From positions 1-52,385 of the IMG/VR virus record IMGVR_UViG_3300044691_000213: a DNA stretch of 52,385 nt; one strand, 5' to 3'. Both the position numbers and the translations under genes were made by a program. Source of the DNA: a virus (lineage: Duplodnaviria; Caudoviricetes). Below are positions 9,048 through 41,850 of this stretch, in pieces. The notes beneath the pieces were generated by a model, which had not been told where the DNA came from, ran no database searches, and saw nothing but the letters and a program-made list of their open reading frames with translations. Position 1 is the first letter of the stretch. Every line of letters begins with the position of its first letter.

Positions 9048-9103
9048 TTTTTGGGAACGTCTTGTCTCCGTCCTCCCCCTCTGTAGTGGTGGGGGACTGA
9101 CCC

Positions 9104-9331
9104 TTGAACCCCTCCCATATCATCACCCCCTCCCCAGAGCAGGAAGCCGCATCCGTGGCATTCGAGCATGCCGCCTGGTGGCGCCTACGCGGGCTTACGG
9201 CTGCCGAGGCATGCGACGCCCTCGGGATAGCCCACGACTGCCATTGGGACCGCGTTGAGCAAGCCCTGCGCAGGCGGTGGCGTGAGGCGGTCCAGACCAA
9301 GGCGCAGAGCGCACGTAGGAGCGCCGCGTGA
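9104..9331 (+). CDS. Hypothetical protein
   Basis: Coupled by GTGA overlap to the replication gene. Confidence 0.45.
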   Translation: MNPSHIITPSPEQEAASVAFEHAAWWRLRGLTAAEACDALGIAHDCHWDRVEQALRRRWREAVQTKAQSARRSAA

Positions 9332-23410: not shown

Positions 23411-26400
23411 ATGTCGAATCTGACCCTGTCCCTGACCGCCAATATCTCCGACGCCCAGACCAAGCTTGCGGTCCTGCGTTCTGCCTTGACTGATGTCAAC
23501 GCCACGGTTCGCCAACAATCGGCCGCCTATGTCGAGGCCGACAACGCCGCCCGAGCGACGATGCTTCCGGCGTTGCAGGCTGTGACAGCCGAGCAGAAGA
23601 ACCTGCAGGCCGGCGTCAATGCCGCGACGATCGCGGTCAAGGGGCACGGCGAAGCGCACCAGGGCCTATTCGCCAAGCTTCAGCAGAACCGTGCAGCCCT
23701 CCAGGAAGTCGAACACTCCATCCGCGCCAGCATGGATGCGCTCGCGGCCGGCGCCTCGCCGATGAAGGTTGCCAGCCAGGAACTTCCGCGCATCATCCAG
23801 GCCTTCACCGAACTGAATGGCGTTTCGCTCTCGACGGTCCTGGCGATGGCAGGGGTTGCGGCGGGAGTGATCGCGGTCGGCGGCGGTCTGGCGGCCTTGG
23901 TCATCCATGCCGAGAACGTCGATGAGATGTTCGGCAAGATGCAGGCCGCCTTTGAGGCGACGGGCCGGGGCACCGAATTCACGCGCGCCGGGGCGATCGT
24001 ACTTATCGATGCGCTGCGCTCGCTGCATGGCGTCTCGACCCAGAACGCCGAAGACATGGTACAGGGCTTCGCCCGCATCCGCACGATCGGCATCGGCTCG
24101 TTCCTCGATCTCGGGACCGCCGTTGCGGGCTATGCGCGCGTTTCGGGCGGCGATGTCAAATCGGCACAGGAGACGCTGACTCGCGCGCTTGAGGGCGGCT
24201 ATGAGAGCGTCCGTAAGCTCGATGAGCAATGGCAGATCTTCACGCCCGGGCAGGCCGAGATCGCGCGTAAATTCAGCGATACCGGCGACAAGGCCGGGTT
24301 CATGGGCGTGGCGATTTCAGCGCTCAAAGACAAATTCGGCGCGCTGATCGATACCGGCCTGACTCCGACGCAAAAGGCTTCGAATGACCTCGGCGTGGCA
24401 TGGAACAATCTCATGCACACGTTCGGCCAGAACTCAGCCATCAACGGCGCGCGCGATGCGATTGCCCGTCTGCTGGAGACGATGGCCGGCGGGATCAATA
24501 CCGATGCCCTAGAGACCGCCAAGGCGAAACTCACCGAACTGCAGCAGATCAAAACCAATTCCAATCCGAACAATCCGCTCGATGCCGTCTTCTTGCCGGG
24601 CATCGACCGCGATATCGCGAAGCTACAGGATTTTATCGCGCTTCAGGAAAAGGCTAAGGCCGCCGCGATCCCGACCGGTGAGGCAGTCCCAGACGCGCAG
24701 CAGGAACTGACCAAGCAGGCGCTGGACGATTACCACAAGCAGACCGCCGCCAAGGCCGAACAGGAGAAGATCGAGAACAAGATCGCCGAATACCAGAAGG
24801 CGCAGCAGGGCACGACCGGAGAGACCTTCGACGCGCTCCAGCACGGCATCGACGCGTTGCGGGTCAAGATGCAGTCGCTCAAGGATGCCGGCGGCCAGAC
24901 GATCGTCCAACAGCTTCAGGTCGAACTAGATCAGCGCATCGCCAAGGAGCAGGTGTTCGGCGCTCAGGCGAAGGCGCTCGAACTGAAGTTCTGGACCGAT
25001 AAACTCGCGCTCATCAAGACGGCCGCCGATCAGGCCAATGGCGAAATAGAGGCCGGCAGCCGCGCCGCCTACCAGATCCAGCAGAAGGCGTTCACGCTCA
25101 GCCAAGCTGTGCATTCGGAAGAAGTTGCCGCGACCAAGAAGGAAATCGCCGAGAAGAAACAGGCGACCGAGCAATGGTGGCGCGACTACTCGACCGGCAT
25201 GGAACAGGCCATCAAGCAGTCCGCTGGCAACTACGATCAGATGAAGGCGCTCGCCAAGGACTGGGAAGATACCGGAAAGATCCTATTCGGCGATCATATC
25301 GCGCATTTCAAATCCGCCTCCGACGCCATCTTGAAGATCGATGCCGAGGAAAAGGCGCAACTGCGCAAGAATGCCGAGAAGGAAGCGGCATTCGAGGCCG
25401 AGCAGGCGCGCCATGCGCAAGCCATGAGCCAGATCCAGGCCAAGCCGGATGCCGGCGAGTTCAAGGTCAATGCCTTCGATCTGGTGTTCTCCGATGGCGC
25501 GACCAAGCTTCAGGAGCAGATCCAGGCGCAATCCGACGCGCTGACGACCGGGCTTAGGGCGGAACTGGCCGATCTCCAATCCGAGATGGAGGCCGCGACC
25601 ACGGCCGGCGATTCCAATCGATATCAGGCGGCGCTTGACAAGCAGGTTGAGGCGCAGGCACGCACGACCCAGCAGATCACGGCATTGCAGGCTCGGGCCG
25701 CGACGGCCACTGAGGCCGCCTGGGAAAAGGCGCTATCGCCGATCGATCGGGCGTTCAGTTCGTCGGTCCAAGGCATCCTGGAAGGCACGCAGACCACGGC
25801 GCAGGCCATGAACAAGCTGGCCGAATCCATCGTCATGTCGTTCATCAATGCGGCCGAACAGGATCTCGTGCATTGGATTGCCCACGAGCTCGCGAAGACG
25901 ACCGCGACCACGACGGGTACGGCCACACGAAAGGGCGTTGTCGCGGCCGGAGCCACGTCGGAGACGGTTGCGGAGAACGCGAGCGGCGTTGCCTATGCGG
26001 GCGTCGAGACGGCGAAGACCGCCGCAGCGGTCGAGGGATCGACGATACGGTCGACCGCTGCAACGGGAGAGGCCGCCGCGGGCAAGGCCGAATCCGCTGC
26101 GGCAGGCTCAACCTCGATCATGAACGATGCCTATAAGGCCGCCGCCGCGACCTATGCGAACGTCGCAGAGATCCCCTATGTCGGCTGGATCTTGGCGCCA
26201 GTTGCGGCGGCAGGAGCCTTTGCCGCCGTCGCGGCCTACGATGTGCTGTCGGCTGAGGGCGGCGCGTGGGAGATCAACGGCACCACGCCGGCCGTGCTCC
26301 ACCATCAGGAATCGGTGCTCCCCGCCGCCGTTGCGGCACCGATGCGTGATTTCTTCTCGAATGGTGCGGCCGGCGCGCTGCAATTGTCCGTGCCGCAGAT

Positions 26401-26605
26401 CCGTGATGGCATGAACTTCTCGGCGCCCCCTGCCGCAGCGAATGCGGCCACGAGCCAGTCGGCGGGAGGCGACACTTACCACGTCACCGTCCAGGCGATC
26501 GACACTCAGGCCGGCGCGCAATTCATCCAGCAGCACGCCAGGACCATCGTCACGGCGCTGCGCGCCCAGGTTCGCAACGGCACGCCGCTTCCAGGGGTGC
26601 GGTAA
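23411..26605 (+). CDS. Tail tape measure protein
   Basis: 1064 aa, Ala/Gln-rich helical; lambda-like N-terminal region; GGAGG RBS. Confidence 0.93.
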   Translation: MSNLTLSLTANISDAQTKLAVLRSALTDVNATVRQQSAAYVEADNAARATMLPALQAVTAEQKNLQAGVNAATIAVKGHGEAHQGLFAKLQQNRAALQEVEHSIRASMDALAAGASPMKVASQELPRIIQAFTELNGVSLSTVLAMAGVAAGVIAVGGGLAALVIHAENVDEMFGKMQAAFEATGRGTEFTRAGAIVLIDALRSLHGVSTQNAEDMVQGFARIRTIGIGSFLDLGTAVAGYARVSGGDVKSAQETLTRALEGGYESVRKLDEQWQIFTPGQAEIARKFSDTGDKAGFMGVAISALKDKFGALIDTGLTPTQKASNDLGVAWNNLMHTFGQNSAINGARDAIARLLETMAGGINTDALETAKAKLTELQQIKTNSNPNNPLDAVFLPGIDRDIAKLQDFIALQEKAKAAAIPTGEAVPDAQQELTKQALDDYHKQTAAKAEQEKIENKIAEYQKAQQGTTGETFDALQHGIDALRVKMQSLKDAGGQTIVQQLQVELDQRIAKEQVFGAQAKALELKFWTDKLALIKTAADQANGEIEAGSRAAYQIQQKAFTLSQAVHSEEVAATKKEIAEKKQATEQWWRDYSTGMEQAIKQSAGNYDQMKALAKDWEDTGKILFGDHIAHFKSASDAILKIDAEEKAQLRKNAEKEAAFEAEQARHAQAMSQIQAKPDAGEFKVNAFDLVFSDGATKLQEQIQAQSDALTTGLRAELADLQSEMEAATTAGDSNRYQAALDKQVEAQARTTQQITALQARAATATEAAWEKALSPIDRAFSSSVQGILEGTQTTAQAMNKLAESIVMSFINAAEQDLVHWIAHELAKTTATTTGTATRKGVVAAGATSETVAENASGVAYAGVETAKTAAAVEGSTIRSTAATGEAAAGKAESAAAGSTSIMNDAYKAAAATYANVAEIPYVGWILAPVAAAGAFAAVAAYDVLSAEGGAWEINGTTPAVLHHQESVLPAAVAAPMRDFFSNGAAGALQLSVPQIRDGMNFSAPPAAANAATSQSAGGDTYHVTVQAIDTQAGAQFIQQHARTIVTALRAQVRNGTPLPGVR

Positions 26606-27246
26606 TGTCAACCGCCGTCTATCCCACCAACACCCAGTTGCCGGGCGTCACCTATACCGTCAAGCGCACGCCGCAAGTCCAGAGCCGGATTCAGATCTCG
26701 ATCAGCGGCAAGGAAACCCGGATCTCCGACTGGTCGTATCCGCGCTATAATTACGAGCTCCAATACGAGTTCCTGCGCACCGCCGCGGCTTTTCAGGAAT
26801 TGCAGCGCCTCGGGGCGTTCTACGTGGCGCGGCTCGGGCCGTTCGATTCCTTCCTGTTCAATGATGTTGACGACAATGGTGTGACCGGCCAGGTCATCGG
26901 CACGGGCGATGGGGTAGCGACCTCATTTCAACTGGTCCGCACCTATGGCCCCTCCGGCACCGTCGCGGTCGAGCCGATCTTCGCCCCGAATGTCGTCTCG
27001 GCCGTCAAGGTCAACGGCGTGCTGCAGACGGTCGATGTCGATTATGGCGTCGGCAATTGGGAGAACGGCGTCACGCCGAACGGCACGCTCGCCTTTTTCT
27101 CGGGCGCGCCTGCCGATGGCGCCGTCATTACCGCCGATTTCACCTTCTATTGGCCGTGCCGCTTCTCAGACGACACCCTCGATCTTGAGAAGTTCATGAA
27201 CGGGCTTTGGCAGGCAAAATCCGTCAAATTCATGAGTTTGAAGTGA
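26605..27246 (+). CDS. Distal tail protein (DUF2460, GTA-like)
   Basis: SGKETR...WSYPR..Y; F.ARLGPFDSFLF; IGTGDG...FQLVRTYG; TADFTFYWPCRF. Confidence 0.88.
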   Translation: MSTAVYPTNTQLPGVTYTVKRTPQVQSRIQISISGKETRISDWSYPRYNYELQYEFLRTAAAFQELQRLGAFYVARLGPFDSFLFNDVDDNGVTGQVIGTGDGVATSFQLVRTYGPSGTVAVEPIFAPNVVSAVKVNGVLQTVDVDYGVGNWENGVTPNGTLAFFSGAPADGAVITADFTFYWPCRFSDDTLDLEKFMNGLWQAKSVKFMSLK

Positions 27247-28601
27247 AGCCGATCTCAGACGCGCTCAAAGCGCTCCTGGCGACGCGCCAGTTCTATGCCG
27301 CCGACCTCTATACCTTCACGCTGGTCGGTGACGGCCCGGTCGCGCCATCGCCGCCGCCGCCGCCCTCACCACCGCCACCACCGCCGTCTCCTCCACCACC
27401 GCCACCACCGCCGTCTCCTCCACCACCGCCTGCTCCTGGTGGCAGCTATTACACGATCGGCCGCTACTGGTACGTCGCCACGACCGGCAATGATTCGACC
27501 GGCACCGGTACTGTGACCAATCCCTGGCGCACCATGCAGGGCGCGAACGATAGCGGCGTGCTACAGGCGGGCGACGCGGTCAATTATGCCGATGGCACCT
27601 ATACCCTGACCATCCAGACGAATCTCTCGGCCGGCGGCAACACCAACAGCCCGCTAGGCTACGTCGTCCATCGCGCAATCAATTCGCATGGCGCCAAGCT
27701 CGTGGCCGCGGGGTCGTTCTACGACATGATTGTCGCGACCGGAAACTACATTATCGTAGACGGCTTTGAGATCGACGGCAGCAACGAAGGGCTTTCGTCG
27801 AGCCCGGTGACTGCGGGGAGCGGCTTCGTCGGCCAGGGCCATCACATAATCGTCATAAACAACCTGATCCACGACTTTGGCGGGGCTGGAATAAGCTGCC
27901 TATATAAGGACTGGTACACGATCGACGGCAACACGGTACACGATTGCGCGAAGTTCAACGGGTTCCATGACTCTGGAATTGGCATCTACGAGCCGGCAGC
28001 GACGAGCTATACGCCTTCAGCCGCCGATATCGCCGCAGGTAGTCGTCACATCATCATCCAAAATAACACCTGCTATAATAACGCTGAAACCTACGTCCCG
28101 TTTAGCCTCCCGAGCAATCCTCACACGGACGGCAACGGCATTATTCTGGATGACTTCCAAAACACCCAGGGCAACAACCCATACGTATCGGTAAACACCA
28201 ACTATCCGTACAACAGTTATGTTTACAAAAACACCAGCTATAACAACGGCGGTCGGGGAGTTCACCTATTCTTTACTGACAACGTAACCGTCGACAGTAA
28301 CATTTGCTACACTAACAACCTCGACACGATTGTTACCGGCATCTGGCGCGGCGAATTGTCGAACGCCTTTGGCAACAATAACACTTGGACGAACAACAAA
28401 GCCACTTGTACCAGCACCACGAGCGGTGTCACGGCGAACAACACCGCCGTTCTCGACGGCAGTTCGTCGACTGTGAGCGTCACCTGGAACAACAACGCAA
28501 ACTACGATACCAGGACGGGCGCGCGCAGCTACAGCATAGACAACTCGGCGCGGAACGCCGCATTCCCCGGCGCCAACCCCCTAGGCGGACCCCTGCCGTG
28601 A
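27243..28601 (+). CDS. Chimeric protein: hub (DUF2163-like) N-terminal peptide + polyproline linker + right-handed beta-helix (putative depolymerase/adhesin)
   Basis: GTG start overlapping the upstream stop; MKPISDALKALLATRQFYAADLYTFTLVG, then a Pro tract, then WYVATTGND...PWRT...GD.V...GTY (DUF1565-like) and Asn-rich coils. Confidence 0.82.
   Translation: MKPISDALKALLATRQFYAADLYTFTLVGDGPVAPSPPPPPSPPPPPPSPPPPPPPPSPPPPPAPGGSYYTIGRYWYVATTGNDSTGTGTVTNPWRTMQGANDSGVLQAGDAVNYADGTYTLTIQTNLSAGGNTNSPLGYVVHRAINSHGAKLVAAGSFYDMIVATGNYIIVDGFEIDGSNEGLSSSPVTAGSGFVGQGHHIIVINNLIHDFGGAGISCLYKDWYTIDGNTVHDCAKFNGFHDSGIGIYEPAATSYTPSAADIAAGSRHIIIQNNTCYNNAETYVPFSLPSNPHTDGNGIILDDFQNTQGNNPYVSVNTNYPYNSYVYKNTSYNNGGRGVHLFFTDNVTVDSNICYTNNLDTIVTGIWRGELSNAFGNNNTWTNNKATCTSTTSGVTANNTAVLDGSSSTVSVTWNNNANYDTRTGARSYSIDNSARNAAFPGANPLGGPLP
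27345..27437 (+). repeat. CCN triplet tract encoding a (S)PPPPP linker
   Basis: ccgccgccg/ccaccaccg tandem units. Confidence 0.9.
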
Positions 28602-28615
28602 TCCGGAGGCAATAG

Positions 28616-29428
28616 ATGGCGACGCTCTATTATTGCTCCGGCGACCGGGACATCACTGTTGACGGCATTACCTACCTGTGCGGCAAGAGCCTGACGGGTG
28701 GTCAGGGCGGCCCGTTCTTCGGCGTCAATACCAAGTTCGCGCTACATCAGAAAATCGGGCTCGAAACCGACACCATCACGTTCGATGTCATCCCCGGCGA
28801 CGGCCAGGTCTTCGGCGAGCCATTTCTGAGCGCATGCCAGGACGGCACTTTCGACGGCGCCACGGTCCAGATCGATCGGGCCTTCATGCCGACCTATGGC
28901 AATGTCGCGGCCGGGATCGTCAATGTCTTCACCGGGCGGGTGGGTGAAGTGGATGCCGGTCGGTCGGTCGCGACCTTCATGGCGAATTCCTGGATGGAAC
29001 TGCTCAATCAGGTATTGCCGCGCAATGTCTATCAGGCGAGCTGCGTGAACAATCTCGGCGATAATATGTGCGGCGTGCATCTGGAATCCTACGCGCAGAA
29101 CTTCACGATTCTGGCGGGATCGACCAAGGCAGTCCTGTTGATCGGCAGCACGGCGGGCAGCGGAGCGCCATACCAGCTTGGCAAGGTCATTGTGCAGACC
29201 GGCTTGCTCGCTGGCCTCTCGCGCTCGGTTCGGGCCTGTGCGTTTTCCGGAGGTACGGGAACGGTCACCCTGTTGGGACCGCTGCCGTCCGCGCCAGCAG
29301 TGGGCGATTCCGTCCGGCTTTACTACGGCTGCGACAAGAGCCAGGGCGCGCAGGGCTGTCCGAAATTCGCCAATATCGCGAATTTCAGGGGATTTCCGTA
29401 TATTCCTCAGCCCGTTACGGCCGTGTAA
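28616..29428 (+). CDS. Tail hub protein (DUF2163 / BR0599-type C-terminus) lacking its usual N-terminal ~30 aa
   Basis: GGAGG RBS; TLYYCSGDRDI...GTFDGATV...FTGRV...YQASC...LGDNMCGV...GCDKS...C.KFANIANFRGFPYIP. Confidence 0.88.
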   Translation: MATLYYCSGDRDITVDGITYLCGKSLTGGQGGPFFGVNTKFALHQKIGLETDTITFDVIPGDGQVFGEPFLSACQDGTFDGATVQIDRAFMPTYGNVAAGIVNVFTGRVGEVDAGRSVATFMANSWMELLNQVLPRNVYQASCVNNLGDNMCGVHLESYAQNFTILAGSTKAVLLIGSTAGSGAPYQLGKVIVQTGLLAGLSRSVRACAFSGGTGTVTLLGPLPSAPAVGDSVRLYYGCDKSQGAQGCPKFANIANFRGFPYIPQPVTAV

Positions 29429-29429
29429 A

Positions 29430-29927
29430 ATGCCGACCGAAAGCGAAATCGCCATCGAGCGCGCCGCCGTTGTGGCCGAGGCAGAGGCGTGGCTTGGGAC
29501 GCCGTTTCACCATGAGGCCAGAGTCAAGGGGGCCGGAGTTGACTGCGCTCAACTCCTGGCCGGCGTCTACCATAATGCCGGGCTCATCCCGAACCTGAAT
29601 ATCTCGCACTACCCGCACGACTGGCACATGCACCGGGATGCCGAGCGCTATCTGGCGACGGTGTTTCAATATGCCGTCGAAGTGCAGGGCCTTGAAGACC
29701 GAACTCCGTTGCCGGGCGATATCGTCGTCTTCCGCTTCGGCCGCACCTTCTCGCATGGCGCGATCGTCACCGCCTGGCCGATGGTCATCCATGCCTATGT
29801 CGGCAAAGCGGTTTCGGCTGAGGACGTTTCGACCAGCGCCTATTTGCAGACGATCGGCGAGAACACCGCCGACAAGGGCCATCCAAGGCCCATGCGCGTC
29901 TTCATTTTGAAGCGGTGGGCCGAATAA
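29430..29927 (+). CDS. NlpC/P60 tail-associated peptidase
   Basis: WLGTPFHH...GVDCAQL...PGDIVVF...SHGAI...IHA. Confidence 0.92.
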   Translation: MPTESEIAIERAAVVAEAEAWLGTPFHHEARVKGAGVDCAQLLAGVYHNAGLIPNLNISHYPHDWHMHRDAERYLATVFQYAVEVQGLEDRTPLPGDIVVFRFGRTFSHGAIVTAWPMVIHAYVGKAVSAEDVSTSAYLQTIGENTADKGHPRPMRVFILKRWAE

Positions 29928-32785
29928 TGGCAGGCATCTTCGGCTCCTCTTCGCAATCCACCCAAACCCCAGCGGTCAGCGGCTTCAACGTCCAGACCTC
30001 GGCCTATGGCAAGTGCATCCCGATCGTTTTCGGCTTTACGCGCCTCGCGCCAAATCTGCTGTGGTATGCGAATTTCCAGGCCCACGCCCATCAGCAGAAG
30101 GTCGGCAAGGGCGGCGGCGGGTGTTTCCTCGGCCGCGTTACTGTCGCCACCCCGCAAGGCCCGCGCCCGATCGGCGAGATGGCCGAGGGTGACGAGATCT
30201 ATTGCCGCAATCCCCTCACTGGCGAGCGGGAAATCGGCCAGGTCGTCGGCACCTCGATTCATCGGCTCGGCGACACGCCCAATCGGTTGGTCAAGATCTC
30301 ATACGAAGGAGATCGCGTCCTCGACGGCATCACCGACAATCACCATGTCTGGCTCGATCCGCAGAATTACAGCGAGGCCGGCGGTCTGACGGCCGATCAT
30401 CTGTTGGAGATGGTCGACGGTTCCATGGCGCGGGTAAGCGGCATCGAAGATATCGCGTCGGACCCGGATGATCTCGTCCATAATTTGGTTGTGCTGCCCT
30501 GGCACAACTATTTCGCCGATGGCGTGCTGGTGCATAATGGCGGCGGCGGCAAGGGGCCGGTCTCCTATACATATACCGTCGACCTGATCCTCGGAATCTG
30601 CGAAGGCCCGCTTTCCACTGGAGCGGCCGACTCCCCTCTCTGGGTCGGCAAGACGAAGACAACCGCCGCCGCGCAGGGCATGTCGTATATCGACGGCGTC
30701 TGGCCCTATCTCGCCACCAAATATCCGTCGCAGGCACTGGGCTACAACTCCGTTACGCTGCTAGTGGGGGCGAGCTATAATCTCGGAAATAACACGCAGT
30801 TGCCGAACTTCAATGTTGAAGTTGGCTTTACGTCATTGGGCGAGATTGCCAATGGGGACGAATTTCCGCACCTGATAGCACTTGAACTTCTGGGTAACTT
30901 TCAATATGGGCTGGATCTTGGCTATTACGGCGATTCATCTTCCGTGGTTGGAAGCTGGTATTTCTATCGGGATGGGTCCGGCTCATTTGTCTGGGATACA
31001 TATTACAACTATATTGTCGCCTCCGGCCTGTTCATGTCGGTTGCCTATACCAACCAAGTTCCTGCGGCGCAAATGCTGCAGGAGATCGCGACCTTCACCA
31101 ACAGCGAATGGGTCTGGTCGAACGGCAAGTTGTTCCCCGTTCCCCGCGGAACGGTGTCGCTCTCGGCCACATTTCCCGATCCATCGCTCGACGTTACCTA
31201 CACGCCGCCGACGCCCGTATTCGATCTGACCGACGATGATTTCCTGCTGAACGTCTCCGGCAGCACGACATCGACCTCGAATGACCCGATCATCGTCTCG
31301 CGCAAGCGCGTCTCGGATCAGAACAACGTCGTCACGCTGGAATGGCTCGACCGCAGCAATGAATATGCGCCGGCCATCGCGGAAGCCTCCGACCAGGCAC
31401 TGATTGATGTCTACGGACGGCGCACGACCGGCACGCAGCAGGCGCATCTGTTCGCGACCGCTTCTTGCGCGAACAATTCCGTGCAACTCCTTCTCCAAAA
31501 GGAATATGTCAGGAACACCTACAGCTTCACGCTCGATGCCCGCTATGTCGTGCTCGACCCGATGGATATCGTCACGCTGACGGACGCCGCGCTCCGGCTG
31601 GATCACGCCTGGGCGCGCATCACCGAAATGACGGAACAGACGGACGGCACGATCGCGTTTCTCGCCGAGGAAGTTCCCGAGGGCGGCGGCCAGCCGGCGC
31701 TCTATAGCTTCGCGACCGGCCAGGGGTTCAGCCCGAACTATGGCGCCGATCCGGGCATGGTCAACACGCCGATCATCTTCGCCGCCCCGACGCAATTGAC
31801 CGGCGGCGATCTGGAGGTGTGGGGGGCGGTCTCGGGCGCCAGCGCCAATTGGGGCGGCGCCAATATCTGGATCTCGCTTGACGGCGGCTCAAGCTATACC
31901 TTCATCGGCACGCAAACCGGCTCGGCGCGGATGGGCGTGCTCAATACGCTCCTGCCGGTCATGGCTGATCCCGATATCACCGACACACCGACCGTCGATC
32001 TCACGGAATCGTTCGGCGAACTCTTCTCGGTCTCCCAACCCGAAGCCGACCAAGCGCTGACGCTCTCGATCGTTGATGGCGAGTTGTTCGCCTATGAGAC
32101 GGCAACCCTGACGGCACCCTATACCTACCAACTGTCCTATCTGCGTCGCGCGCTCTACGGCACGATCCAGGCGACCCATGTTTCGGCACCGTTCGCGCGG
32201 CTCGACAACCAGATCTTCAAGTACCCCTACAAGTCGAGTCAGATCGGCCAGACCGTCTTCCTTAAATTCACCTCGTTCAACATCTATCAGGAAGCCGAGC
32301 AGAGCTTGGCCGATGTCGTGGCCTATCCTTACGTGATCGGCACGGCGCCGGATTCCAATCGCTTCACCCTGGCACAAGCATCCTCGCCAGATTGGCCCGG
32401 CACGCTCTCCGGGTTCCTCAAGACCTGGGACGGCATCCTGGTGCCCGACAGCACCCTAGGCGCCAACGCCCACACCAACGCGCAATTGTTCACGCAGTTC
32501 GTGCCGTTCCCCGTGTCGAGCCCGACCTATCAGGGGCCGGCGTTCGATATCGGGATTTCGGAGCCGGTCAACGTGACGATCCGGCCGGCGGCGTCTGCGC
32601 CGAATGGCGGCGTCGCGGTCAATGCGACGGCCCTTGATCACTGGTCGACCGGATCTGACCCGAATACCTTCGCCGCGTTCTCGACCGGCAGCATCACGGG
32701 GCGGTATTTCCGCGCCCAGATCACGCAGGACACCTCGGTTGCGCCGTCCTATGTGACCGCGCTCGCCCTCAACATCTTCAATTAG
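29927..32785 (+). CDS. Tail tip/host-specificity protein (Phage-tail_3, GTA g15-like) containing a Hint domain
   Basis: QTSAYGKCIPIVFG; LGICEGP; LPNFNVEV; YVVLDPMDIV; LRRALYGT; LKFTSFN. Confidence 0.9.
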   Translation: MAGIFGSSSQSTQTPAVSGFNVQTSAYGKCIPIVFGFTRLAPNLLWYANFQAHAHQQKVGKGGGGCFLGRVTVATPQGPRPIGEMAEGDEIYCRNPLTGEREIGQVVGTSIHRLGDTPNRLVKISYEGDRVLDGITDNHHVWLDPQNYSEAGGLTADHLLEMVDGSMARVSGIEDIASDPDDLVHNLVVLPWHNYFADGVLVHNGGGGKGPVSYTYTVDLILGICEGPLSTGAADSPLWVGKTKTTAAAQGMSYIDGVWPYLATKYPSQALGYNSVTLLVGASYNLGNNTQLPNFNVEVGFTSLGEIANGDEFPHLIALELLGNFQYGLDLGYYGDSSSVVGSWYFYRDGSGSFVWDTYYNYIVASGLFMSVAYTNQVPAAQMLQEIATFTNSEWVWSNGKLFPVPRGTVSLSATFPDPSLDVTYTPPTPVFDLTDDDFLLNVSGSTTSTSNDPIIVSRKRVSDQNNVVTLEWLDRSNEYAPAIAEASDQALIDVYGRRTTGTQQAHLFATASCANNSVQLLLQKEYVRNTYSFTLDARYVVLDPMDIVTLTDAALRLDHAWARITEMTEQTDGTIAFLAEEVPEGGGQPALYSFATGQGFSPNYGADPGMVNTPIIFAAPTQLTGGDLEVWGAVSGASANWGGANIWISLDGGSSYTFIGTQTGSARMGVLNTLLPVMADPDITDTPTVDLTESFGELFSVSQPEADQALTLSIVDGELFAYETATLTAPYTYQLSYLRRALYGTIQATHVSAPFARLDNQIFKYPYKSSQIGQTVFLKFTSFNIYQEAEQSLADVVAYPYVIGTAPDSNRFTLAQASSPDWPGTLSGFLKTWDGILVPDSTLGANAHTNAQLFTQFVPFPVSSPTYQGPAFDIGISEPVNVTIRPAASAPNGGVAVNATALDHWSTGSDPNTFAAFSTGSITGRYFRAQITQDTSVAPSYVTALALNIFN
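30122..30538 (+). other. Hint domain (mini-intein/BIL-like, 139 aa, no endonuclease)
   Basis: Block A CFLGRVTVATPQGPRPI, block B ITDNHHVW, block F/G VHNLVV..HNYFADGVLVHN; the next residue is Gly. Confidence 0.9.
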
Positions 32786-32793
32786 GTGACAGA

Positions 32794-35700
32794 ATGGCCG
32801 TAGGGACCTTTCTACAGTCGAACTATGCCACCCTCTCGGGTTCGGCCTATCCGCTCGCGATCGATGCGAGTTTCGCCGTCTCGAAACGGTTCATTGACGC
32901 CTTCGCGCCGCACGAGGCCGCATCGCCGAACATGACGGTCCTGCTCGATGCAGGGCACGTCTACAACGTCTCGACAAACGCCCTGACCGAAGTCGCACAG
33001 CAGACGACCTCGACCATTACGGCGCCAGTCACGCATCCGCGGATCGACCGGATCGTGGTCGATGCCGGCACGGGCGTCTATACGCGGGTCGGGGGAACCG
33101 AGGCGACCAGCCCCGTTGCGCCCGCGATCCCGGCCGGCAAGATCCCCGTCTGCCAGATCCTTCTTCAGACGACCTCGACCACCATCACGAATTCGATTCT
33201 GACGGACGAGCGCGCGTTGTGGATGAACGGGTCTCTCGCCAACCCGATGACGACAGCGGCCGATCTCATCGTTGGCGGCAGCGGCGGAGCGCCTGCGCGT
33301 CTCGCCGTTGGATCGAACGGGCAGGCGCTGATCGTCTCCGGCGGCGCAATTGCCTGGGGTATTCCGGCGCTCGCCGCGATTGCTGACGGCGATGTGCTGG
33401 CGAATACGAGCGGCGGCTCGGCCGCTCCGGTCGCCACCACGATCTCCACCGTGATCGATCATGCGCTGGGCAATACTCAGGGCGATGTACTCTACAGGAA
33501 TTCGTCGGGCTGGGTGGTGCTGGCTCCGGGAACCTCGGGCCAAGTCCTGACGACGGGCGGCACTTCCGCCAATCCTTCCTGGACGACCGTATCGGGCGGT
33601 GGTGGCAGCGGCACCGTCACCAGCGTGGGCGTGTCCTCGACCGATCTCAGCGTATCGGGTTCGCCGGTCACCACCTCCGGCTCGATCACGCTCAACGTCA
33701 ACAGCAATGCCATCACGAACGCCAAGCTGGCGCAGATGGCGGCCCACACCTACAAGGGCAACAACACCGGCTCGACCGCGAACGCCATCGACCTGACGGC
33801 AACGCAATTGACGGCCGAACTGAACGCAGTGGTCGGCGATACCGGCTCGGGTGGCACGAAGGGCATGGTTCCGGCACCAGGCTCTGGCGACGCCTCCGCC
33901 GGCAAATTCTTAAAGGCGGATGGCACCTGGGAAATTCCGCCCGGCGGTGGCGGCGGCGGCGGCTCCGTTACGAGCGTGGGCGTGTCCTCAACGGACTTCA
34001 GCGTGTCGGGCTCCCCGATCACCAGTTCTGGCTCGATCACGCTCAACCTGAACACCACGGGCGTTACCGCCAGCACCTATAAGTCCGTGACGGTCAACAC
34101 CAAAGGACAAGTCACCGCCGGTACGAACCCGACGACCTTGTCCGATTACGGGATTACCGACGCCCTGGCTCTGGCGGGCGGCGCGATGTCCGGCGCTATC
34201 GCCATGGGCACTTTTGGGATTACAGGGCTCGCAACGCCTGTCAATCCGGCCGACGCCGCAACCAAAGCCTATGTGGACGGGGTGACTTCTGGGCTTAGCA
34301 TACGCGATAGCTGCGCCGCCGCGACGAATGGCGCGCTTCCGAACACGCCCATCTACAGTAACGGCTCGTCCGGTGTCGGCGCTACGCTAACGGGTGTGGG
34401 TTTTGCGGCGCTTGTCGTCGACGGCTACACAGCGGCGGTGAACGACCGTATCCTGGTCAAGGACCAAGTGACCGCCGCGAACAACGGCATATACACGGTT
34501 ACGGTCGCGGGCAGCGGCGCGGCCGTATACGTGCTGACGCGCGCAACCGACTGCAACTTCGCTAGCAACATATTCTCTGGGATATTCACCTTCATCGAAC
34601 AGGGCACCGCCAATACGGGCGCGGGCTTCACCTTGACCACGGCCGGCGCTATCACGGTCGGTACGACGGGGCTAACCTTTACGCAGTTCAGCGGCGCCGG
34701 AGAGATTACGGCCGGCACGGGGCTTGCCAAGAGCGGCAACACTCTGTCCCTCGCGACGATCGCCAACCATGACGTGCTCGCCAACACGAGCGGCGGCACG
34801 GCGGCGCCCGTCGCTACAACGCTCACCGCACTGATCGACGACGCGATTGGGTCCACGCAGGGGGCTATCCTCTACCGCAACTCGTCGAGTTGGGTCGTTT
34901 TGGCGCCAGGCACAAGCGGCCAGGTTCTCCAGACAGGCGGCGCTTCCGCCAATCCGTCCTGGACGGCGGCCGGAGGCGGTTCGGGCACCGACATCCAGGA
35001 GTTCACCTCCAGCGGCACCTGGACAAAGCCGGCCAGCGCGACATCGACATCCTCTATCGAAGTCATATGCGTCGGCGCGGGCGGCGGCGGCGGGGGCGGA
35101 GCTGGTGGCGCTACGGGCACCTCCCGCATCGGCGGCGGCGCCGGGGGTGGAGGCGTCCGGATAACACGAGTATTCAAGGCGGCCGATCTCGGTTCCACCG
35201 AAACGATAACTGTCGGCGCGGGCGGCACTTCCGGGACGGCCGGCTCTTCCGGGGTTGGCTCCGCGGGCGGCGCGGGCGGCAACAGCAGCGTCGGCTCGAA
35301 GCTGACCGCCTACGGCGGCGGCGGCGGCGGCGGCGGTGCTGCCACCGGCACGTCGGGAAGCGGCGGCGGCGGCGGGGGCACGGGTGGTGCTGGGGGAACA
35401 GGCTCCGCGACAACTACCATCTCCGGCGGCCTCCCGGCGTCTGCGGCGAACGCTGACGGTATAAGCGGGCAGGGTGGTGGTAGCAGTTCCTCGCAGTCGG
35501 CAAAACGAGGGGAGTTCGGCGGCGGCGGAGGAGGCGGCTGCTTGTCGAGCGGTTCACCTCTTGTGGGCGGAGACAGCCTGTACGGCGGCGGCGGCGGCGG
35601 TGGTGGCGGTGGCGTTAGCACAGGCAACGGCGCCTCGACCGGTGCGGCTGGCGGCGGCGTACAGACCTACAGTTCTGGCAACGGCGGGGCCGGCGGCGCC

Positions 35701-35919
35701 CCCACGGGAGCGGTTGGCACTGCGGGAACGTCCGGCAACTCAACGAAGGGCGGCACTGGCGGCGGCGGCGGCGGTAGTAACGGAAGCGGTACTGCCGGCG
35801 CAGGCGGAGCGGGGGGCGCCATTGGCGGCGGTGGCGGTGGCGGCGGCGGCGGCACTACGGCGGGCGGTGCGGGAGGTGCCGGTGGCGCGGGCTACGTCCT
35901 GATCATCACTCATCCGTAG
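32794..35919 (+). CDS. Tail fibre / receptor-binding protein with internal duplications and a glycine-rich C-terminal domain
   Basis: PRIDRIVV N-terminal anchor; DAATKAYVD; DRILVKDQ..AANNGIY; EFTSSGTWTKP followed by GGGGG-rich region. Confidence 0.88.
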   Translation: MAVGTFLQSNYATLSGSAYPLAIDASFAVSKRFIDAFAPHEAASPNMTVLLDAGHVYNVSTNALTEVAQQTTSTITAPVTHPRIDRIVVDAGTGVYTRVGGTEATSPVAPAIPAGKIPVCQILLQTTSTTITNSILTDERALWMNGSLANPMTTAADLIVGGSGGAPARLAVGSNGQALIVSGGAIAWGIPALAAIADGDVLANTSGGSAAPVATTISTVIDHALGNTQGDVLYRNSSGWVVLAPGTSGQVLTTGGTSANPSWTTVSGGGGSGTVTSVGVSSTDLSVSGSPVTTSGSITLNVNSNAITNAKLAQMAAHTYKGNNTGSTANAIDLTATQLTAELNAVVGDTGSGGTKGMVPAPGSGDASAGKFLKADGTWEIPPGGGGGGGSVTSVGVSSTDFSVSGSPITSSGSITLNLNTTGVTASTYKSVTVNTKGQVTAGTNPTTLSDYGITDALALAGGAMSGAIAMGTFGITGLATPVNPADAATKAYVDGVTSGLSIRDSCAAATNGALPNTPIYSNGSSGVGATLTGVGFAALVVDGYTAAVNDRILVKDQVTAANNGIYTVTVAGSGAAVYVLTRATDCNFASNIFSGIFTFIEQGTANTGAGFTLTTAGAITVGTTGLTFTQFSGAGEITAGTGLAKSGNTLSLATIANHDVLANTSGGTAAPVATTLTALIDDAIGSTQGAILYRNSSSWVVLAPGTSGQVLQTGGASANPSWTAAGGGSGTDIQEFTSSGTWTKPASATSTSSIEVICVGAGGGGGGGAGGATGTSRIGGGAGGGGVRITRVFKAADLGSTETITVGAGGTSGTAGSSGVGSAGGAGGNSSVGSKLTAYGGGGGGGGAATGTSGSGGGGGGTGGAGGTGSATTTISGGLPASAANADGISGQGGGSSSSQSAKRGEFGGGGGGGCLSSGSPLVGGDSLYGGGGGGGGGGVSTGNGASTGAAGGGVQTYSSGNGGAGGAPTGAVGTAGTSGNSTKGGTGGGGGGSNGSGTAGAGGAGGAIGGGGGGGGGGTTAGGAGGAGGAGYVLIITHP

Positions 35920-40284: not shown

Positions 40285-41850
40285 ATGCGCTATTTGACCG
40301 CTCTCATGGTGGGAGCGATGGCCCTTGCATGCCTGAATCCCGCCAGCGCCGCGATTGGCGCCCAACTCACCGCCGCGCCCCAGGCGCCCGCCGTCATGGC
40401 GAACCAATCACTGACGGTCAACCTCACTACTCATGCCATCGTTCCTGCGGGACAGAGCGCGTGGCTCACGTCGCTGGGGACATCGGGGACTCATGGGAAA
40501 GTGGCATGGGCCAGCGTCTACGCAATCACCTACACGCCGGGCAGCTATTACGCCGCCCTCGCGAAGGGGGCCAGCGCCACCGACAAGCTCACCTATTGCC
40601 TGACGGACAATGCCGGCGGCTCGAGCTGCAATACCGTCTCCGTCACGGTCTTCGGTACGGCGACGGCCACGATCCCGCCGGTGACGACCCCGCCCGTGAC
40701 GACCCCGCCGACGACCACGGCCAGCTACACCTGCGTGCGCAACTGGTACGTCGGTCAGAACGGGTCGGACAGTGCCGCCGGCACGGCGGCGACCGTGCCG
40801 TGGAAGACGCTGCAGCACGCGAACGACAGCGGTCTGCTGAAGGCCGGTGATTGCGTCAATGTCGCTCCCGGGACATACCCGATCGTCAACACGACGTACC
40901 TGACGCACGGCGGTAACGCGAATTCCCCGACCGGTTATGTCGTCTATCGCTCGACCACGCCCCAGGGGGCCAAGATCCAGGCGGCGGCCCAGAACATGTA
41001 CAATCTGGTCGAAGCCGATGGCGACTACATGATCTTCGACGGTTTCGAGATCGACGGTAAAAACGAAGGGCTTTCGTCGGCGCCGTTCACCATGGGCCAT
41101 GGCCTGGTCGGTGGCGGGCATCATTTCCAGGCTTTGAACAACGTCGCCCACGACTGCGGCGGCGCGGGGATCTCGACGGTCTACAAGGATTGGTACTGGA
41201 TCGTCGGCAACACGACCTACAACAACGCCCGGTTCAACGGCTACCAGGCGTCGGGCATCTCGATCTACGAGCCGCGCGCGGTCAGCTATACCGCGACCAG
41301 TGCCGACACGAGCGCCACGTATCACATCATCGTGAAGGACAACCTCTCGTACAATAATGACGAACGGTACGTGGCCGGAAACCATACCGACGGCAACGGC
41401 ATCATCATGGATGACTTCCGCAACTCGCAGTCGGGCCTGGCCGCCTATCCCTACAAGTCGCTGGTTCAGGGCAACACGACGTACGGCAACGGCGCTCGGG
41501 GCGTGCACCTGTTCTTCACCGACAACGTGACGGTGGATAGCAACGTCGCCTACAACGACAATCTCGATACGTTGATCATCGGAAGCTGGCGCGGCGAGCT
41601 GTCGAACGCCATCGGCAGCAACAACACCTGGACGAACAACAAGGCCGCCGCGACCAGCGTCCCGACCGACTGGCGCAGCTACAACACCGCCGTCCTCGAT
41701 GGCCATGCGGGTGCCGCCAACGTCAACGTGATCTGGACCGGCAACGCCAACTTCGACACAAGGACCGGCGGCAAGAGCTACCAGATCGACGACGCCACCC
41801 GCGCGGCGGCCTTCCCGGCAGCCAACCCGCTCGGCAAGGCGCTGCCGTAG
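40285..41850 (+). CDS. Secreted right-handed beta-helix protein (signal peptide, Ig/cadherin-like domain, PT linker); paralogue of 27243..28601
   Basis: MRYLTALMVGAMALACLNPASA signal peptide; PPVTTPPVTTPPTTT linker; WYVGQNGSD...PWKTLQHAND. Confidence 0.88.
   Translation: MRYLTALMVGAMALACLNPASAAIGAQLTAAPQAPAVMANQSLTVNLTTHAIVPAGQSAWLTSLGTSGTHGKVAWASVYAITYTPGSYYAALAKGASATDKLTYCLTDNAGGSSCNTVSVTVFGTATATIPPVTTPPVTTPPTTTASYTCVRNWYVGQNGSDSAAGTAATVPWKTLQHANDSGLLKAGDCVNVAPGTYPIVNTTYLTHGGNANSPTGYVVYRSTTPQGAKIQAAAQNMYNLVEADGDYMIFDGFEIDGKNEGLSSAPFTMGHGLVGGGHHFQALNNVAHDCGGAGISTVYKDWYWIVGNTTYNNARFNGYQASGISIYEPRAVSYTATSADTSATYHIIVKDNLSYNNDERYVAGNHTDGNGIIMDDFRNSQSGLAAYPYKSLVQGNTTYGNGARGVHLFFTDNVTVDSNVAYNDNLDTLIIGSWRGELSNAIGSNNTWTNNKAAATSVPTDWRSYNTAVLDGHAGAANVNVIWTGNANFDTRTGGKSYQIDDATRAAAFPAANPLGKALP

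What the first reader, a model, noticed from the sequence alone, without database searches (positions are those of the whole stretch)
27243..29428. Naturally split tail hub: the N-terminal hub peptide carries a beta-helix cargo
Seen: in the DUF2460-DUF2163-NlpC/P60-tip gene order, the hub position holds two ORFs. The first begins MKPISDALKALLATRQFYAADLYTFTLVGDG, switches to a ~34-aa polyproline linker and a ~390-aa beta-helix, and stops at 28601. The second has its own GGAGG RBS and begins MATLYYCSGDRDITVDG. Known (recalled): intact hubs of this family read continuously as roughly ...ADLYTFTLxGGxxLxYxSxDxDI..., so the break falls at the turn of the first beta-hairpin. Inference: this is not gene decay, because both pieces are intact, translationally coupled and have start signals. 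The ~31-aa peptide could re-dock on the hub by beta-strand complementation and hang a depolymerase/adhesin on the tail tip through a rigid linker, a plug-in display mechanism I do not know to be described.
Basis: partly seen in the sequence, partly recalled or inferred. Interest (0 to 1): 0.88.

Follow-up and report, generated by a model that had tools for sequence, protein, structure and literature searches.

The report
Split phage tail hub carrying enzyme
In this uncultured soil phage the tail-tip hub gene is cut in two: its first 31 residues are fused to a long proline spacer and a sugar-cutting-type beta-helix, which probably lets that short piece snap back onto the rest of the hub and hang the enzyme on the tail tip.

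Summary
Against a profile of 99 intact hubs, ORF1 (27243-28601) residues 1-31 match positions 1-31 and ORF2 (28616-29428) residues 3-270 match positions 32-292, with no overlap and no loss. ORF1 continues into a 35-residue polyproline linker and a confidently folded right-handed beta-helix resembling polysaccharide lyases and tailspikes.

This is not decay. Four N-truncated hubs of 62-76% identity form one clade (SH-aLRT 98). A second ORF1-type protein, P0121, has the same peptide-linker-helix layout. The peptide is 24/28 identical between the two, against a mean of 59% in intact hub pairs of similar divergence.

Re-docking by strand complementation is inferred. The complex prediction gave only weak support (0.39 against a best control of 0.03).

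Other members of the hub family carry in-frame inserted domains or a C-terminal beta-helix. The split is therefore a new variant of hub decoration, not a new kind of system.

No cultured phage has an ORF1-like protein. My literature searches found no description of it.

The parts
26605..27246 (+). Distal tail protein gene (DUF2460). Its TGA stop overlaps the GTG start of ORF1.
   Evidence: Pfam PF09343, 7e-44; sequence.
27243..27335 (+). ORF1 residues 1-31: the N-terminal helix and first beta-strand of the hub attachment domain, detached from the rest of the hub.
   Evidence: Aligns to positions 1-31 of the profile of 99 intact hubs, 29.2 bits. It is 68-84% identical to 17 intact hub N-termini. 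It keeps 10 of 10 nearly invariant positions.
27336..27440 (+). ORF1 residues 32-66: polyproline (P/S/A) linker, encoded by a 9/27-nt repetitive stretch.
   Evidence: repeat family D1. pLDDT is low in the model. Of 35 aligned positions, 29 are identical in P0121.
27441..28601 (+). ORF1 residues 67-452 plus the TGA stop: right-handed parallel beta-helix cargo that ends at the native C-terminus of its family.
   Evidence: Pfam Beta_helix, 2.4e-7. AF2 pLDDT is mostly above 95. Foldseek hits to PL9 and PL6 lyases, AlgE4 and tailspikes. Homology to the paralogue runs up to the stop and not beyond it.
28602..28615 (+). 14-nt spacer holding GGAGG (28605-28609) and a TAG (28613-28615) in ORF2's frame directly before its ATG.
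   Evidence: Sequence. No + strand terminator-like site lies between the ORFs.
28616..29428 (+). ORF2: the hub from its second beta-strand to its C-terminus, comprising the rest of the attachment domain and the BR0599 cysteine-containing domain.
   Evidence: PF09931 positions 28-159 of 160 (7.2e-26) and PF09356 (1.9e-18). Custom profile positions 32-292.
29430..29927 (+). NlpC/P60 tail peptidase gene, directly after the hub.
   Evidence: Pfam, 8.2e-6; PHROG 329 minor tail protein.
29915..32785 (+). Tail tip protein of the gpJ / RcGTA g15 type.
   Evidence: Phage-tail_3 2.3e-22 and Rcc01698_C 4.3e-11; PHROG 1101.
40285..41850 (+). Paralogue of the cargo (P0130, 521 aa): a signal-peptide-like N-terminus, a Big_9 Ig domain, a T/P linker and a beta-helix. 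It is 57-58% identical to ORF1 residues 51-452.

Best explanation
What it is. An ancestor of this phage clade took up the 3' part of a gene for a secreted beta-helix carbohydrate-active protein, from its proline/threonine-rich linker through its native stop codon. The piece landed in the loop between the first and second beta-strands of the tail hub gene (DUF2163/BR0599; RcGTA g13-like). The hub has since been made as two polypeptides. ORF1 is hub residues 1-31 (helix plus strand 1), a polyproline spacer of about 35 residues, and the beta-helix. ORF2 is strand 2 to the end of the hub, with a newly evolved ribosome-binding site and ATG.

How it probably works (inferred). During tail-tip assembly the 31-residue piece takes its ancestral place in the attachment domain of ORF2. 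This rebuilds the hub fold by fragment complementation. It would leave three beta-helix enzymes per virion, one for each hub subunit of a trimeric hub, held on stiff proline spacers at the tail tip. There they could bind or cut a host surface polysaccharide.

Why a break rather than an in-frame insert (inferred). The two ends of a beta-helix lie far apart, so it cannot be looped into a tight turn. Compact lectin-like domains are inserted in frame in other hubs of the family.

Shown: the split, its exact complementarity, its conservation, and the fold class of the cargo.

Inferred: docking, presence in the virion, stoichiometry and enzymatic activity.
For: 1. Exact complementarity. ORF1 residues 1-31 match profile positions 1-31 and ORF2 residues 3-270 match positions 32-292 of a profile built from 99 intact hubs. 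Pfam PF09931 starts at position 28 of 160 in ORF2.

2. The break lies in a loop. The AF2 model of intact P0008 has strand 18-26 and strand 32-36, with pLDDT block means of 82-92 over residues 1-40.

3. The split is old and maintained.
- In a quick ML tree of 115 hubs, the four hubs of 270-272 aa (window, P0002, P0003, P0004; 62-76% identical to ORF2) form one clade with SH-aLRT 98.
- P0121 (447 aa, 67% identity, 100% coverage) has the same peptide-polyproline-helix layout. It shares the longest-contig length of 49512 with hub P0003.

4. The peptide is under constraint.
- ORF1 and P0121 are identical at 24 of 28 peptide positions, against 252 of 379 in the cargo. ORF2 and P0003 are identical at 171 of 268.
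- Among 373 pairs of intact hubs with 60-68% body identity, peptide identity averages 0.59 (sd 0.12), and about 1% of pairs reach 24/28.
- Both split peptides keep all 10 nearly invariant N-terminal positions: K2, S5, L8, L11, L12, R15, F17, D21, L22, Y23.

5. The peptide does not pack on its own cargo. In the ORF1 model, residues 1-66 have low pLDDT and residues 70-452 are mostly above 95.

6. Complex prediction gave weak support.
- Score 0.39 (runs 0.39, 0.35, 0.40) against a best control of 0.03 among 3 controls.
- The pass mark was reached by 58 of 80 solved complexes and 2 of 110 mismatched pairs. At a score of 0.60 or under, only 7 of those 80 solved complexes passed, and both passing mismatches fell in that range.
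- The runs agree in at least 71% of contacts, and the partner's pLDDT is at least 52.
- Intact hubs have been solved (6TEH, 8GTC), so this pass may be from memory.

7. The family uses the hub as a display platform.
- Of the 115 hits to the 31-residue N-terminal profile, 64 reach the hub C-terminus. Of those 64, 24 fall into two or more profile segments. That is 23 with internal inserts, plus P0229, which has a C-terminal Beta_helix extension.
- Laminin_G_3 domains are found in P0203 and P0190, and a Beta_helix hit in P0229.

8. The cargo fold matches pectate and rhamnogalacturonan lyases, AlgE4 epimerase, PL6 lyases and phage tailspikes, with Foldseek E-values from 3.8e-8 to 5e-4.

9. No fused chain is possible. 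ORF2 is in another frame and has an in-frame TAG before its ATG. No intron family matched: the only Rfam hit was an sRNA model at 31.4 bits against a gathering score of 60.
Against: - No experiment and no solved structure supports docking. The only direct test is a weak pass, and the model's confidence was low on both chains (partner pLDDT 53-54, the other chain 56-59).
- Only two ORF1-type sequences are known (the window and P0121). The ORF1 partners of P0002 and P0004 could not be fetched.
- That P0121 and P0003 lie on one contig is inferred from equal contig lengths, not seen.
- The first ~200 residues of ORF1 are all more conserved than the rest (cargo residues 67-200: 108/134). High peptide identity could therefore reflect recent recombination of the 5' part of the gene rather than selection on docking.
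- The hub pairs are phylogenetically non-independent.
- None of the 23 in-frame inserts lies at profile positions 27-31. Exposure of that particular turn on the assembled tip is therefore not supported by analogy, and I could not inspect coordinates.
- The word-index search with ORF1 residues 1-40 missed the known positive P0121. Absence of other cargoes at this site is therefore weakly tested.
- The assembly across the proline repeat is not bridged by a long contig in the one run available.
Confidence: 0.58

Rival explanations
1. The peptide is a leftover start signal. The insertion borrowed the hub's start codon and first 31 codons simply to get expressed. ORF2 works as a hub without strand 1. 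ORF1 is then a soluble enzyme released at lysis, or reaches the virion by some other contact.
For: - Homologues of the cargo are free secreted proteins with their own signal peptide and Ig-like domain, including one in this same phage (P0130). The helix therefore does not need a virion.
- The complex score is only weak.
- The whole 5' third of ORF1 is more conserved than the rest, not the peptide alone.
Against: - A leftover of 28-31 codons should drift. Instead it is 24/28 identical between lineages whose hub bodies are 64% identical. That is more conserved than in about 99% of 373 intact hub pairs of similar divergence. It also keeps 10/10 family-invariant positions.
- ORF1 has lost the signal peptide of its relatives, so it cannot be exported as they are.
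- In the intact homologue, strand 18-26 is modelled with block-mean pLDDT of about 91-92. Its loss would remove a confidently modelled strand from the domain.
Confidence: 0.27
2. The peptide docks ORF1 on a partner other than ORF2. For example, it could bind the distal tail protein ring (DUF2460) that the hub attachment domain normally contacts, while ORF2 tolerates the missing strand.
For: In RcGTA the hub attachment domain (residues 1-142) binds the distal tail proteins (passages of PMC7296036). The N-terminal helix could be part of that contact.
Against: - Nothing specific points to it.
- The peptide ends exactly where ORF2 begins, as expected if the two still form one fold.
- The complex run scored the peptide against ORF2 at 0.39 and against an unrelated protein at 0.03 (weak).
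Confidence: 0.08
3. Artefact or decay. The layout is either a chimeric assembly across the proline repeat, or a recently broken hub in a dying prophage.
For: Logan contigs of the only run that holds the stretch break inside the proline repeat (27396/27401), and only 37- and 50-nt pieces bridge it. That run may be the source sample, so it is not independent evidence.
Against: - Each long contig shows its half of the anomaly, at similar depth (64.8 and 59.9).
- P0121, from other assemblies (12 contigs), has the full layout in one ORF.
- Four truncated hubs form a diverged clade.
- Both ORFs are open, with start signals.
- GC3 of the cargo (0.74) is close to that of its neighbours (0.76-0.79), which suggests long residence.
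Confidence: 0.03
4. One chain is made after all, by RNA splicing, protein splicing, ribosomal bypass or frameshifting that removes the cargo.
For: None found. It is considered only because the two hub parts abut exactly.
Against: - No intron family matched in 26500-30000.
- ORF1 has no Hint/intein hit.
- The cargo is a complete domain family with its native C-terminus and stop.
- A TAG blocks ORF2's frame just upstream of its ATG.
- The gap of about 1280 nt is far beyond known bypasses (general knowledge).
Confidence: 0.02

Closest known systems
Hub protein of RcGTA (g13, Rcc01696; PDB 6TEH/6TBA) and of roseophage R4C (8GTC). This is the DUF2163/BR0599 family, called 'TIGR02218 family' by one source.
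   Same: ORF2 carries both family domains (PF09931 and PF09356). It sits in the same DUF2460-hub-NlpC/P60-tip order. The intact relative P0008 matches 6TBA (1.8e-17) and 8GTC (5.8e-16).
   Different: The solved and catalogued hubs are single chains of about 290-300 aa. Here the first 31 residues are on another polypeptide that also carries a 386-residue beta-helix.
'Evolved' distal tail (Dit) and Tal proteins of siphophages of Gram-positive bacteria, which carry inserted carbohydrate-binding modules.
   Same: A core tail-tip protein is decorated with sugar-binding modules (abstracts of PMC7533335 and PMC10688798). The hub family here does the same with in-frame Laminin_G_3 inserts.
   Different: Those inserts are in frame within one chain. 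Here the chain is broken and the cargo hangs on the N-terminal fragment. The decorated protein is the hub, not Dit or Tal.
Conserved N-terminal docking peptide of secondary depolymerase RBPs in Klebsiella podophages (KP32/K11/KP34 branched RBP systems).
   Same: A short N-terminal peptide is what attaches a beta-helix depolymerase to another tail protein (abstract of PMC13352976; listing of PMC6872550).
   Different: There the peptide binds a dedicated branching domain on the first RBP. Here the proposed peptide is a piece of the acceptor's own fold, produced by gene fission, and the acceptor is the hub.
Phage genes split by an inserted gene whose halves reassemble. I recall a split ribonucleotide reductase subunit interrupted by a homing-endonuclease gene in an Aeromonas T4-like phage. 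This example is recalled and comes from no call.
   Same: An inserted gene splits an essential gene, and the two polypeptides are thought to rebuild the protein.
   Different: In that case the inserted gene is a separate selfish ORF. Here the inserted sequence is fused in frame to the upstream half, so reassembly would also tether a cargo.

Membership tests
DUF2163/BR0599 tail hub (PF09931 + PF09356; RcGTA g13-like) | Complete N-terminal attachment domain (PF09931) in the hub polypeptide | tested here: not met
   ORF2 matches PF09931 only from position 28 of 160 and my profile only from position 32 of 292. Positions 1-31 are on ORF1. The feature is met only by the two polypeptides together.
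DUF2163/BR0599 tail hub (PF09931 + PF09356; RcGTA g13-like) | C-terminal BR0599 domain with the conserved cysteines that bind an iron-sulfur cluster in RcGTA (passages of PMC7296036) | tested here: met
   PF09356 at 1.9e-18, ORF2 residues 186-265. C143, C152 and C239 are invariant in 70 sequences. A fourth cysteine in ...GAQGCPKF... is visible in the sequence. Metal binding itself was not tested.
DUF2163/BR0599 tail hub (PF09931 + PF09356; RcGTA g13-like) | Synteny: DUF2460 upstream, NlpC/P60 and the tip protein downstream | tested here: met
   Among the hub-bearing related loci, the same order is seen wherever the locus extends that far.
Right-handed beta-helix polysaccharide lyase/hydrolase (depolymerase-type cargo) | Parallel beta-helix fold | tested here: met
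   Pfam Beta_helix at 2.4e-7. AF2 mean pLDDT 87.8, with the helix region mostly above 95. 77 PDB chains match at E<=0.001; the top hit is 1ru4, pectate lyase Pel9A, at 3.8e-8. TM-scores are modest (0.3-0.46) because the disordered N-terminus is included.
Right-handed beta-helix polysaccharide lyase/hydrolase (depolymerase-type cargo) | Catalytic residues and activity on a defined polysaccharide | not tested
   26 invariant columns (several D, H and N) exist in 49 homologues, but I did not map them to any known active site. No CAZy-type family was assigned.
Classical phage tailspike | Dedicated N-terminal anchor or adapter domain, and a trimeric beta-helix | tested here: not met
   The N-terminus is 31 hub residues plus a linker, with no anchor-domain family hit. 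Nearest sequence relatives are signal-peptide proteins with Ig-like domains, not tailspikes. Oligomeric state was not tested.
Intein or self-splicing intron | Hint domain with splice-junction residues, or an intron RNA fold | tested here: not met
   No Hint family in ORF1. No intron family in 26500-30000 at E<=1. ORF2 is in another frame behind a TAG.

The most novel reading that the evidence does not exclude
A natural split-protein tag. The first 31 residues of the hub (one helix plus one strand) suffice to load a large cargo onto the tail tip by completing the hub's own fold. Gene fission is then the route by which phages mount domains whose ends are far apart, such as beta-helices, at sites where only compact domains can be inserted in frame. 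If so, other cargoes should be found on the same or neighbouring break points. P0284 is a candidate: hub positions 1-53, then DUF2341 and Laminin_G_3, with no hub remainder. The tag could be reused to decorate hubs of this family.
Probability: 0.5. Interest if true: 0.8.

Novelty: new variant of a known kind. Interest (0 to 1): 0.72.

Why it matters
Host recognition modules are the fastest-changing and most engineered part of phages. The known ways to mount an enzyme on a tail are a dedicated anchor domain, an in-frame insert in a baseplate protein, or a docking peptide on another receptor-binding protein. A core structural protein that is split, so that a piece of its own fold becomes the docking tag, would be a further route. 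It would explain how bulky, elongated domains reach a position close to the tail axis. It would be a rare natural example of fragment complementation kept by selection in a virion protein. It would also offer a short, defined handle for loading cargo on tails of the GTA-like siphophage group. Finally, the survey shows that this hub family is a frequent carrier of extra domains, which has a bearing on annotating 'DUF2163' genes of unusual length.

Tried and rejected
Other cargoes on the same peptide:
- The word-index search with ORF1 residues 1-40 gave 7 hits among 37 candidates. All carry both hub domains: six are about intact length (295-325 aa) and one, P0178, is 399 aa. The search missed the known positive P0121, so it is insensitive.
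- The profile search of 1.84 billion representatives gave 115 hits.
  - 5 are not hubs.
  - 46 stop before hub position 200. By eye, most of the 24 of these that I printed look like frameshifted or contig-end fragments.
  - P0284, and perhaps P0286, remain open.
  - ORF1 and P0121 themselves are not represented there, presumably because they are clustered under a cargo homologue.
- A viral-contig scan with P0284 found nothing.

Split relatives with DNA:
- Every hub that the scans brought in reads through the break point as one frame.
  - Genome contigs: 14 loci, of which 12 are complete at 291-296 aa, one stops at 154 aa (L004) and one runs off its contig (L009).
  - Viral contigs: 2 loci.
  - Metagenome contigs: 2 hub loci; the other 5 of its 7 loci hold distant cargo relatives only.
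- The search of 244 genomes of the order of G001 found 27 genomes with a match and none covering ORF1 end to end. The best match, G222 (query 19-448), is a P0130-type secreted protein. One row of that tally, an intact hub N-terminus in G236, comes from an unpublished genome.
- No match for ORF1 in 50,697 GenBank phage records. ORF2's best cultured relatives are under 37% identical.
- Because of this I could not compute dN/dS or check synteny in the other split lineages.

Mobile-element signatures: I found no convincing flanking direct or inverted repeats around 27336-28615. The best direct pair is 30 nt at 70% identity.

Foreign composition: the GC dip to 0.46-0.52 is mostly due to amino-acid composition. 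GC3 of the cargo is 0.74, against 0.76-0.79 next door. I do not use the dip as evidence of recent transfer.

Expression: no RNA holder was listed.

P0005 (269 aa) falls outside the split clade. It starts at an internal Met position of intact hubs, so it may be a miscalled start. This is left open.

P0229's beta-helix is not detectably homologous to the cargo.

Literature: four searches listed no paper describing a split hub. 'Naturally split' and 'gene fission' had 0 occurrences in every listed paper. These searches cover only the held open-access library, and supplements are closed.

Full report
CONTEXT. The window is a 52,385-base IMG/VR virus record, classed as linear, with a CheckV completeness estimate of 69%. 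Its tail module reads:
- tape measure (23411-26605);
- DUF2460 distal tail protein (26605-27246);
- the two ORFs in question;
- NlpC/P60 (29430-29927);
- a gpJ/g15-type tip protein (29915-32785);
- a 1041-aa fibre.
An integrase (44909-45970) and an RDF-like gene lie further on. The closest intact hubs come from prophage-like loci in metagenome-assembled genomes titled mostly Stellaceae or Rhodospirillales. The likely host is therefore a soil alphaproteobacterium of that group. This is inferred.

- ORF1 starts at a GTG that overlaps the DUF2460 stop. It encodes 31 residues, then 35 proline-rich residues, then 386 residues with a Beta_helix hit. It stops at 28601.
- ORF2 starts 14 nt later, behind GGAGG.
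- I built a profile from 99 intact hubs of 285-312 aa taken. ORF1 residues 1-31 align to positions 1-31 (29.2 bits). ORF2 residues 3-270 align to positions 32-292. The two pieces are exactly complementary.
- Pfam independently starts its match to ORF2 at position 28 of 160.
- Against 17 intact hub N-termini taken from fetched loci, the peptide is 68-84% identical.
- An AlphaFold2 model of the intact homologue P0008 (67-row alignment, mean pLDDT 83.4) has helix 6-14, strand 18-26 and strand 32-36. The break sits in the loop between the first two strands.

ONE CHAIN CANNOT BE RESTORED BY RECODING.
- ORF2 is in the -1 frame relative to ORF1, and a TAG stands in that frame directly before the ATG.
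- Rfam at E<=1 gave no intron. The only hit is an sRNA model far below its gathering score.
- ORF1 has no Hint domain.
- No + strand terminator-like site separates the ORFs.

IS IT AN ASSEMBLY ARTEFACT?
- One public run holds the stretch. It may be the source sample, so it is not independent.
- Its Logan contigs break inside the proline-coding repeat. A 9385-nt contig ends at 27396 and an 8453-nt contig begins at 27401. Only 37- and 50-nt pieces bridge the gap.
- The first contig nevertheless shows the hub peptide running into polyproline.
- The second shows polyproline, the helix, the stop, and then a hub lacking its N-terminus. The two depths are similar (64.8 and 59.9).
- More important, P0121 comes from other assemblies (12 contigs). 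It carries the same peptide, a 37-residue proline linker and the same helix in one 447-aa protein.
- I put artefact or decay at about 3%.

THE SPLIT IS CONSERVED.
- The four best hits to ORF2 are 269-272 aa, while the rest are about 285-330 aa.
- In a quick IQ-TREE of 115 hubs, the window's ORF2, P0002, P0003 and P0004 form one clade (SH-aLRT 98). It has two deep sub-branches. The careful search did not finish.
- P0005 (269 aa) falls outside that clade and may be a miscalled start.
- P0121 and P0003 both list a longest contig of 49,512 nt, so they probably come from one phage. This is inferred.

THE PEPTIDE IS UNDER CONSTRAINT.
- ORF1 and P0121 are identical at 24 of 28 peptide positions, 29 of 35 linker positions and 252 of 379 cargo positions. 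ORF2 and P0003 are identical at 171 of 268.
- Among 373 pairs of intact hubs whose bodies are 60-68% identical, the same 28 positions average 59% identity (sd 12%). About 1% of pairs reach 24/28.
- Both split peptides keep all ten positions that are at least 90% conserved across 38 aligned N-termini.
- Caveats: there are only two sequences, the pairs are non-independent, and cargo residues 67-200 are also unusually conserved (108/134). A recent exchange of the 5' part of the gene is therefore an alternative explanation.

THE CARGO.
- The ORF1 model (49-row alignment) has mean pLDDT 87.8. Residues 1-66 are of low confidence and residues 70-452 are mostly above 95. The peptide does not pack on its own cargo.
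- Foldseek against the PDB gives 77 chains at E<=0.001. The list is headed by pectate lyase Pel9A, rhamnogalacturonan lyases, AlgE4 mannuronan epimerase and PL6 lyases. It includes phage tailspikes (Dettilon, CBA120 TSP2).
- Sequence relatives (45-59% identity over about 85% of ORF1) are proteins of 300-770 aa. Where I looked, these begin with a signal-peptide-like stretch and an Ig-like domain followed by a T/P-rich linker.
- One such relative, P0130, is encoded in this same window at 40285-41850.
- DNA alignment shows that homology runs from the start of the helix to the stop codon and ends there. The inserted piece therefore brought the donor's native 3' end.
- In effect the hub peptide replaced the donor's export and Ig module.
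- GC3 of the cargo (0.74) is near that of its neighbours (0.76-0.79). The acquisition looks old, which fits the diverged clade.

DOES THE PEPTIDE BIND ORF2?
- The one complex job used ORF2 with a 70-row alignment and ORF1 residues 1-42 with a 37-row alignment. It returned 'weak support'.
- The score was 0.39 (runs 0.39, 0.35, 0.40), against a best control of 0.03 among 3 controls.
- The runs agree in at least 71% of contacts, and the partner's pLDDT is at least 52.
- The tool's calibration: the pass mark was reached by 58 of 80 solved complexes and 2 of 110 mismatched pairs. At a score of 0.60 or under, only 7 of those 80 solved complexes passed, and so did both passing mismatches.
- Because I supplied my own alignments, those counts hold only roughly.
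- Intact hubs are solved (6TBA/6TEH, 8GTC, 8VJH, 8RK3). The pass may therefore reflect memory of the intact fold. It shows likeness, not binding.

THE WIDER FAMILY CHANGES THE PICTURE. A 31-position profile of the N-terminus, searched against 1.84 billion representatives, gave 115 hits. I mapped them with the hub profile.
- 5 are not hubs.
- 46 end before hub position 200. Most of the 24 I printed look like frameshifted or contig-end fragments.
- 64 reach the C-terminus. Of these, 24 fall into two or more profile segments, as follows.
  - Six have inserts of about 170-450 residues at positions ~43-66 (P0186, P0203, P0228, P0258, P0278, P0290).
  - Others have inserts near position 118, near 182-205, or near 265-270.
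  - P0229 (1145 aa) has a C-terminal extension with a Beta_helix hit.
- Pfam finds Laminin_G_3 in the inserts of P0203 and P0190.
- The hub of this family is therefore a frequent carrier of extra, probably sugar-binding, domains. This resembles the 'evolved Dit/Tal' proteins of Gram-positive siphophages (abstracts).
- None of these in-frame inserts lies at positions 27-31.
- P0284 (408 aa) has hub positions 1-53 followed by DUF2341 and Laminin_G_3, with no hub remainder. It is either a second split with another cargo or a truncated call. I could not tell.

MECHANISM.
- Shown: a hub divided at a loop into two expressed-looking ORFs, kept through substantial divergence, with the small piece unusually conserved and fused through a proline spacer to a lyase-like helix.
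- Inferred: the small piece re-occupies its place in the attachment domain. Each hub subunit then carries one helix on a spacer.
  - In RcGTA the hub is a trimer (passages of PMC7296036).
  - At the textbook polyproline-II rise of about 3.1 Å per residue, the spacer would span roughly 10 nm. That figure is recalled.
- Inferred: the chain is broken, rather than looped, because the two ends of a beta-helix are far apart.
- My confidence in this reading is about 0.58.
- The main rival is that the peptide is a leftover and ORF2 manages without it (0.27). Its weaknesses are the peptide's conservation and the loss of the donor's signal peptide.

NOVELTY.
- No GenBank phage record has an ORF1-like protein.
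- Four literature searches listed nothing on a split hub. These cover the held open-access library only, and supplements were closed.
- Decoration of tail-tip proteins and short docking peptides on depolymerases are both known.
- I therefore file this as a new variant of a known kind, with high interest because a fragment of a structural fold appears to have become the docking tag.

Noticed in passing
window 30095-30559 (tip protein residues ~61-215): The tip protein holds an insert of about 155 residues that begins with Cys after a GKGGGG run and ends ...VLVHN before GGGGKG. In all 13 related loci that reach this far, the tip matches residues ~5-60 and then resumes at ~216 (12 of them) or ~220 (L026), so the insert is absent there. 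Pfam gives only sub-threshold Hint_2 (0.0052), PT-HINT (0.0063) and Intein_splicing (0.036) hits. It looks like a mini-intein or bacterial intein-like domain. The residue after HN is Gly, which is not a usual splice nucleophile (recalled rule).
   Followed up: partly
window 40285-41850: A second beta-helix gene (P0130, 521 aa) is 57-58% identical to the hub cargo. It has a signal-peptide-like N-terminus and a Big_9 domain, and lies between the tail genes and the integrase. The phage may therefore make one tethered and one secreted copy of the same enzyme type.
   Followed up: partly
proteins P0186, P0203, P0228, P0258, P0278, P0290, P0190, P0216, P0206, P0229 and others: Many DUF2163 hubs carry large in-frame inserts at four recurrent sites, or a C-terminal beta-helix. 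Laminin_G_3 domains are found in P0203 and P0190. I found no description of this in my searches.
   Followed up: partly
protein P0284 (408 aa): It has hub positions 1-53, then DUF2341 and Laminin_G_3, and no hub remainder. It may be a second split hub with a different cargo at a neighbouring break point, or a truncated gene call. No related locus was found in viral contigs.
   Followed up: partly
L003, L004, L011, L014, L015, L016, L018, L019: between the hub and NlpC/P60: Intact relatives have 0.8-2.9 kb of extra genes between the hub and the peptidase. In the window and in L026 the two genes abut or nearly abut. The L018 pair at 9047-9686 looks like an AbrB-type antitoxin plus a PIN toxin, judged by eye only (recalled motifs, not run through Pfam). 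This appears to be a hotspot for extra inserted genes in the tail-tip module.
   Followed up: no
window 32794-35919: The 1041-aa fibre protein ends in about 300 residues of almost pure Gly/Ala/Ser/Thr repeats. It has no Pfam family and only PHROG tail-fibre hits in its middle.
   Followed up: no
window 27342-27437: The proline linker is encoded by a 9/27-nt repeat that breaks short-read contigs. Its length could vary between copies: it is 35 residues here and 37 in P0121.
   Followed up: no
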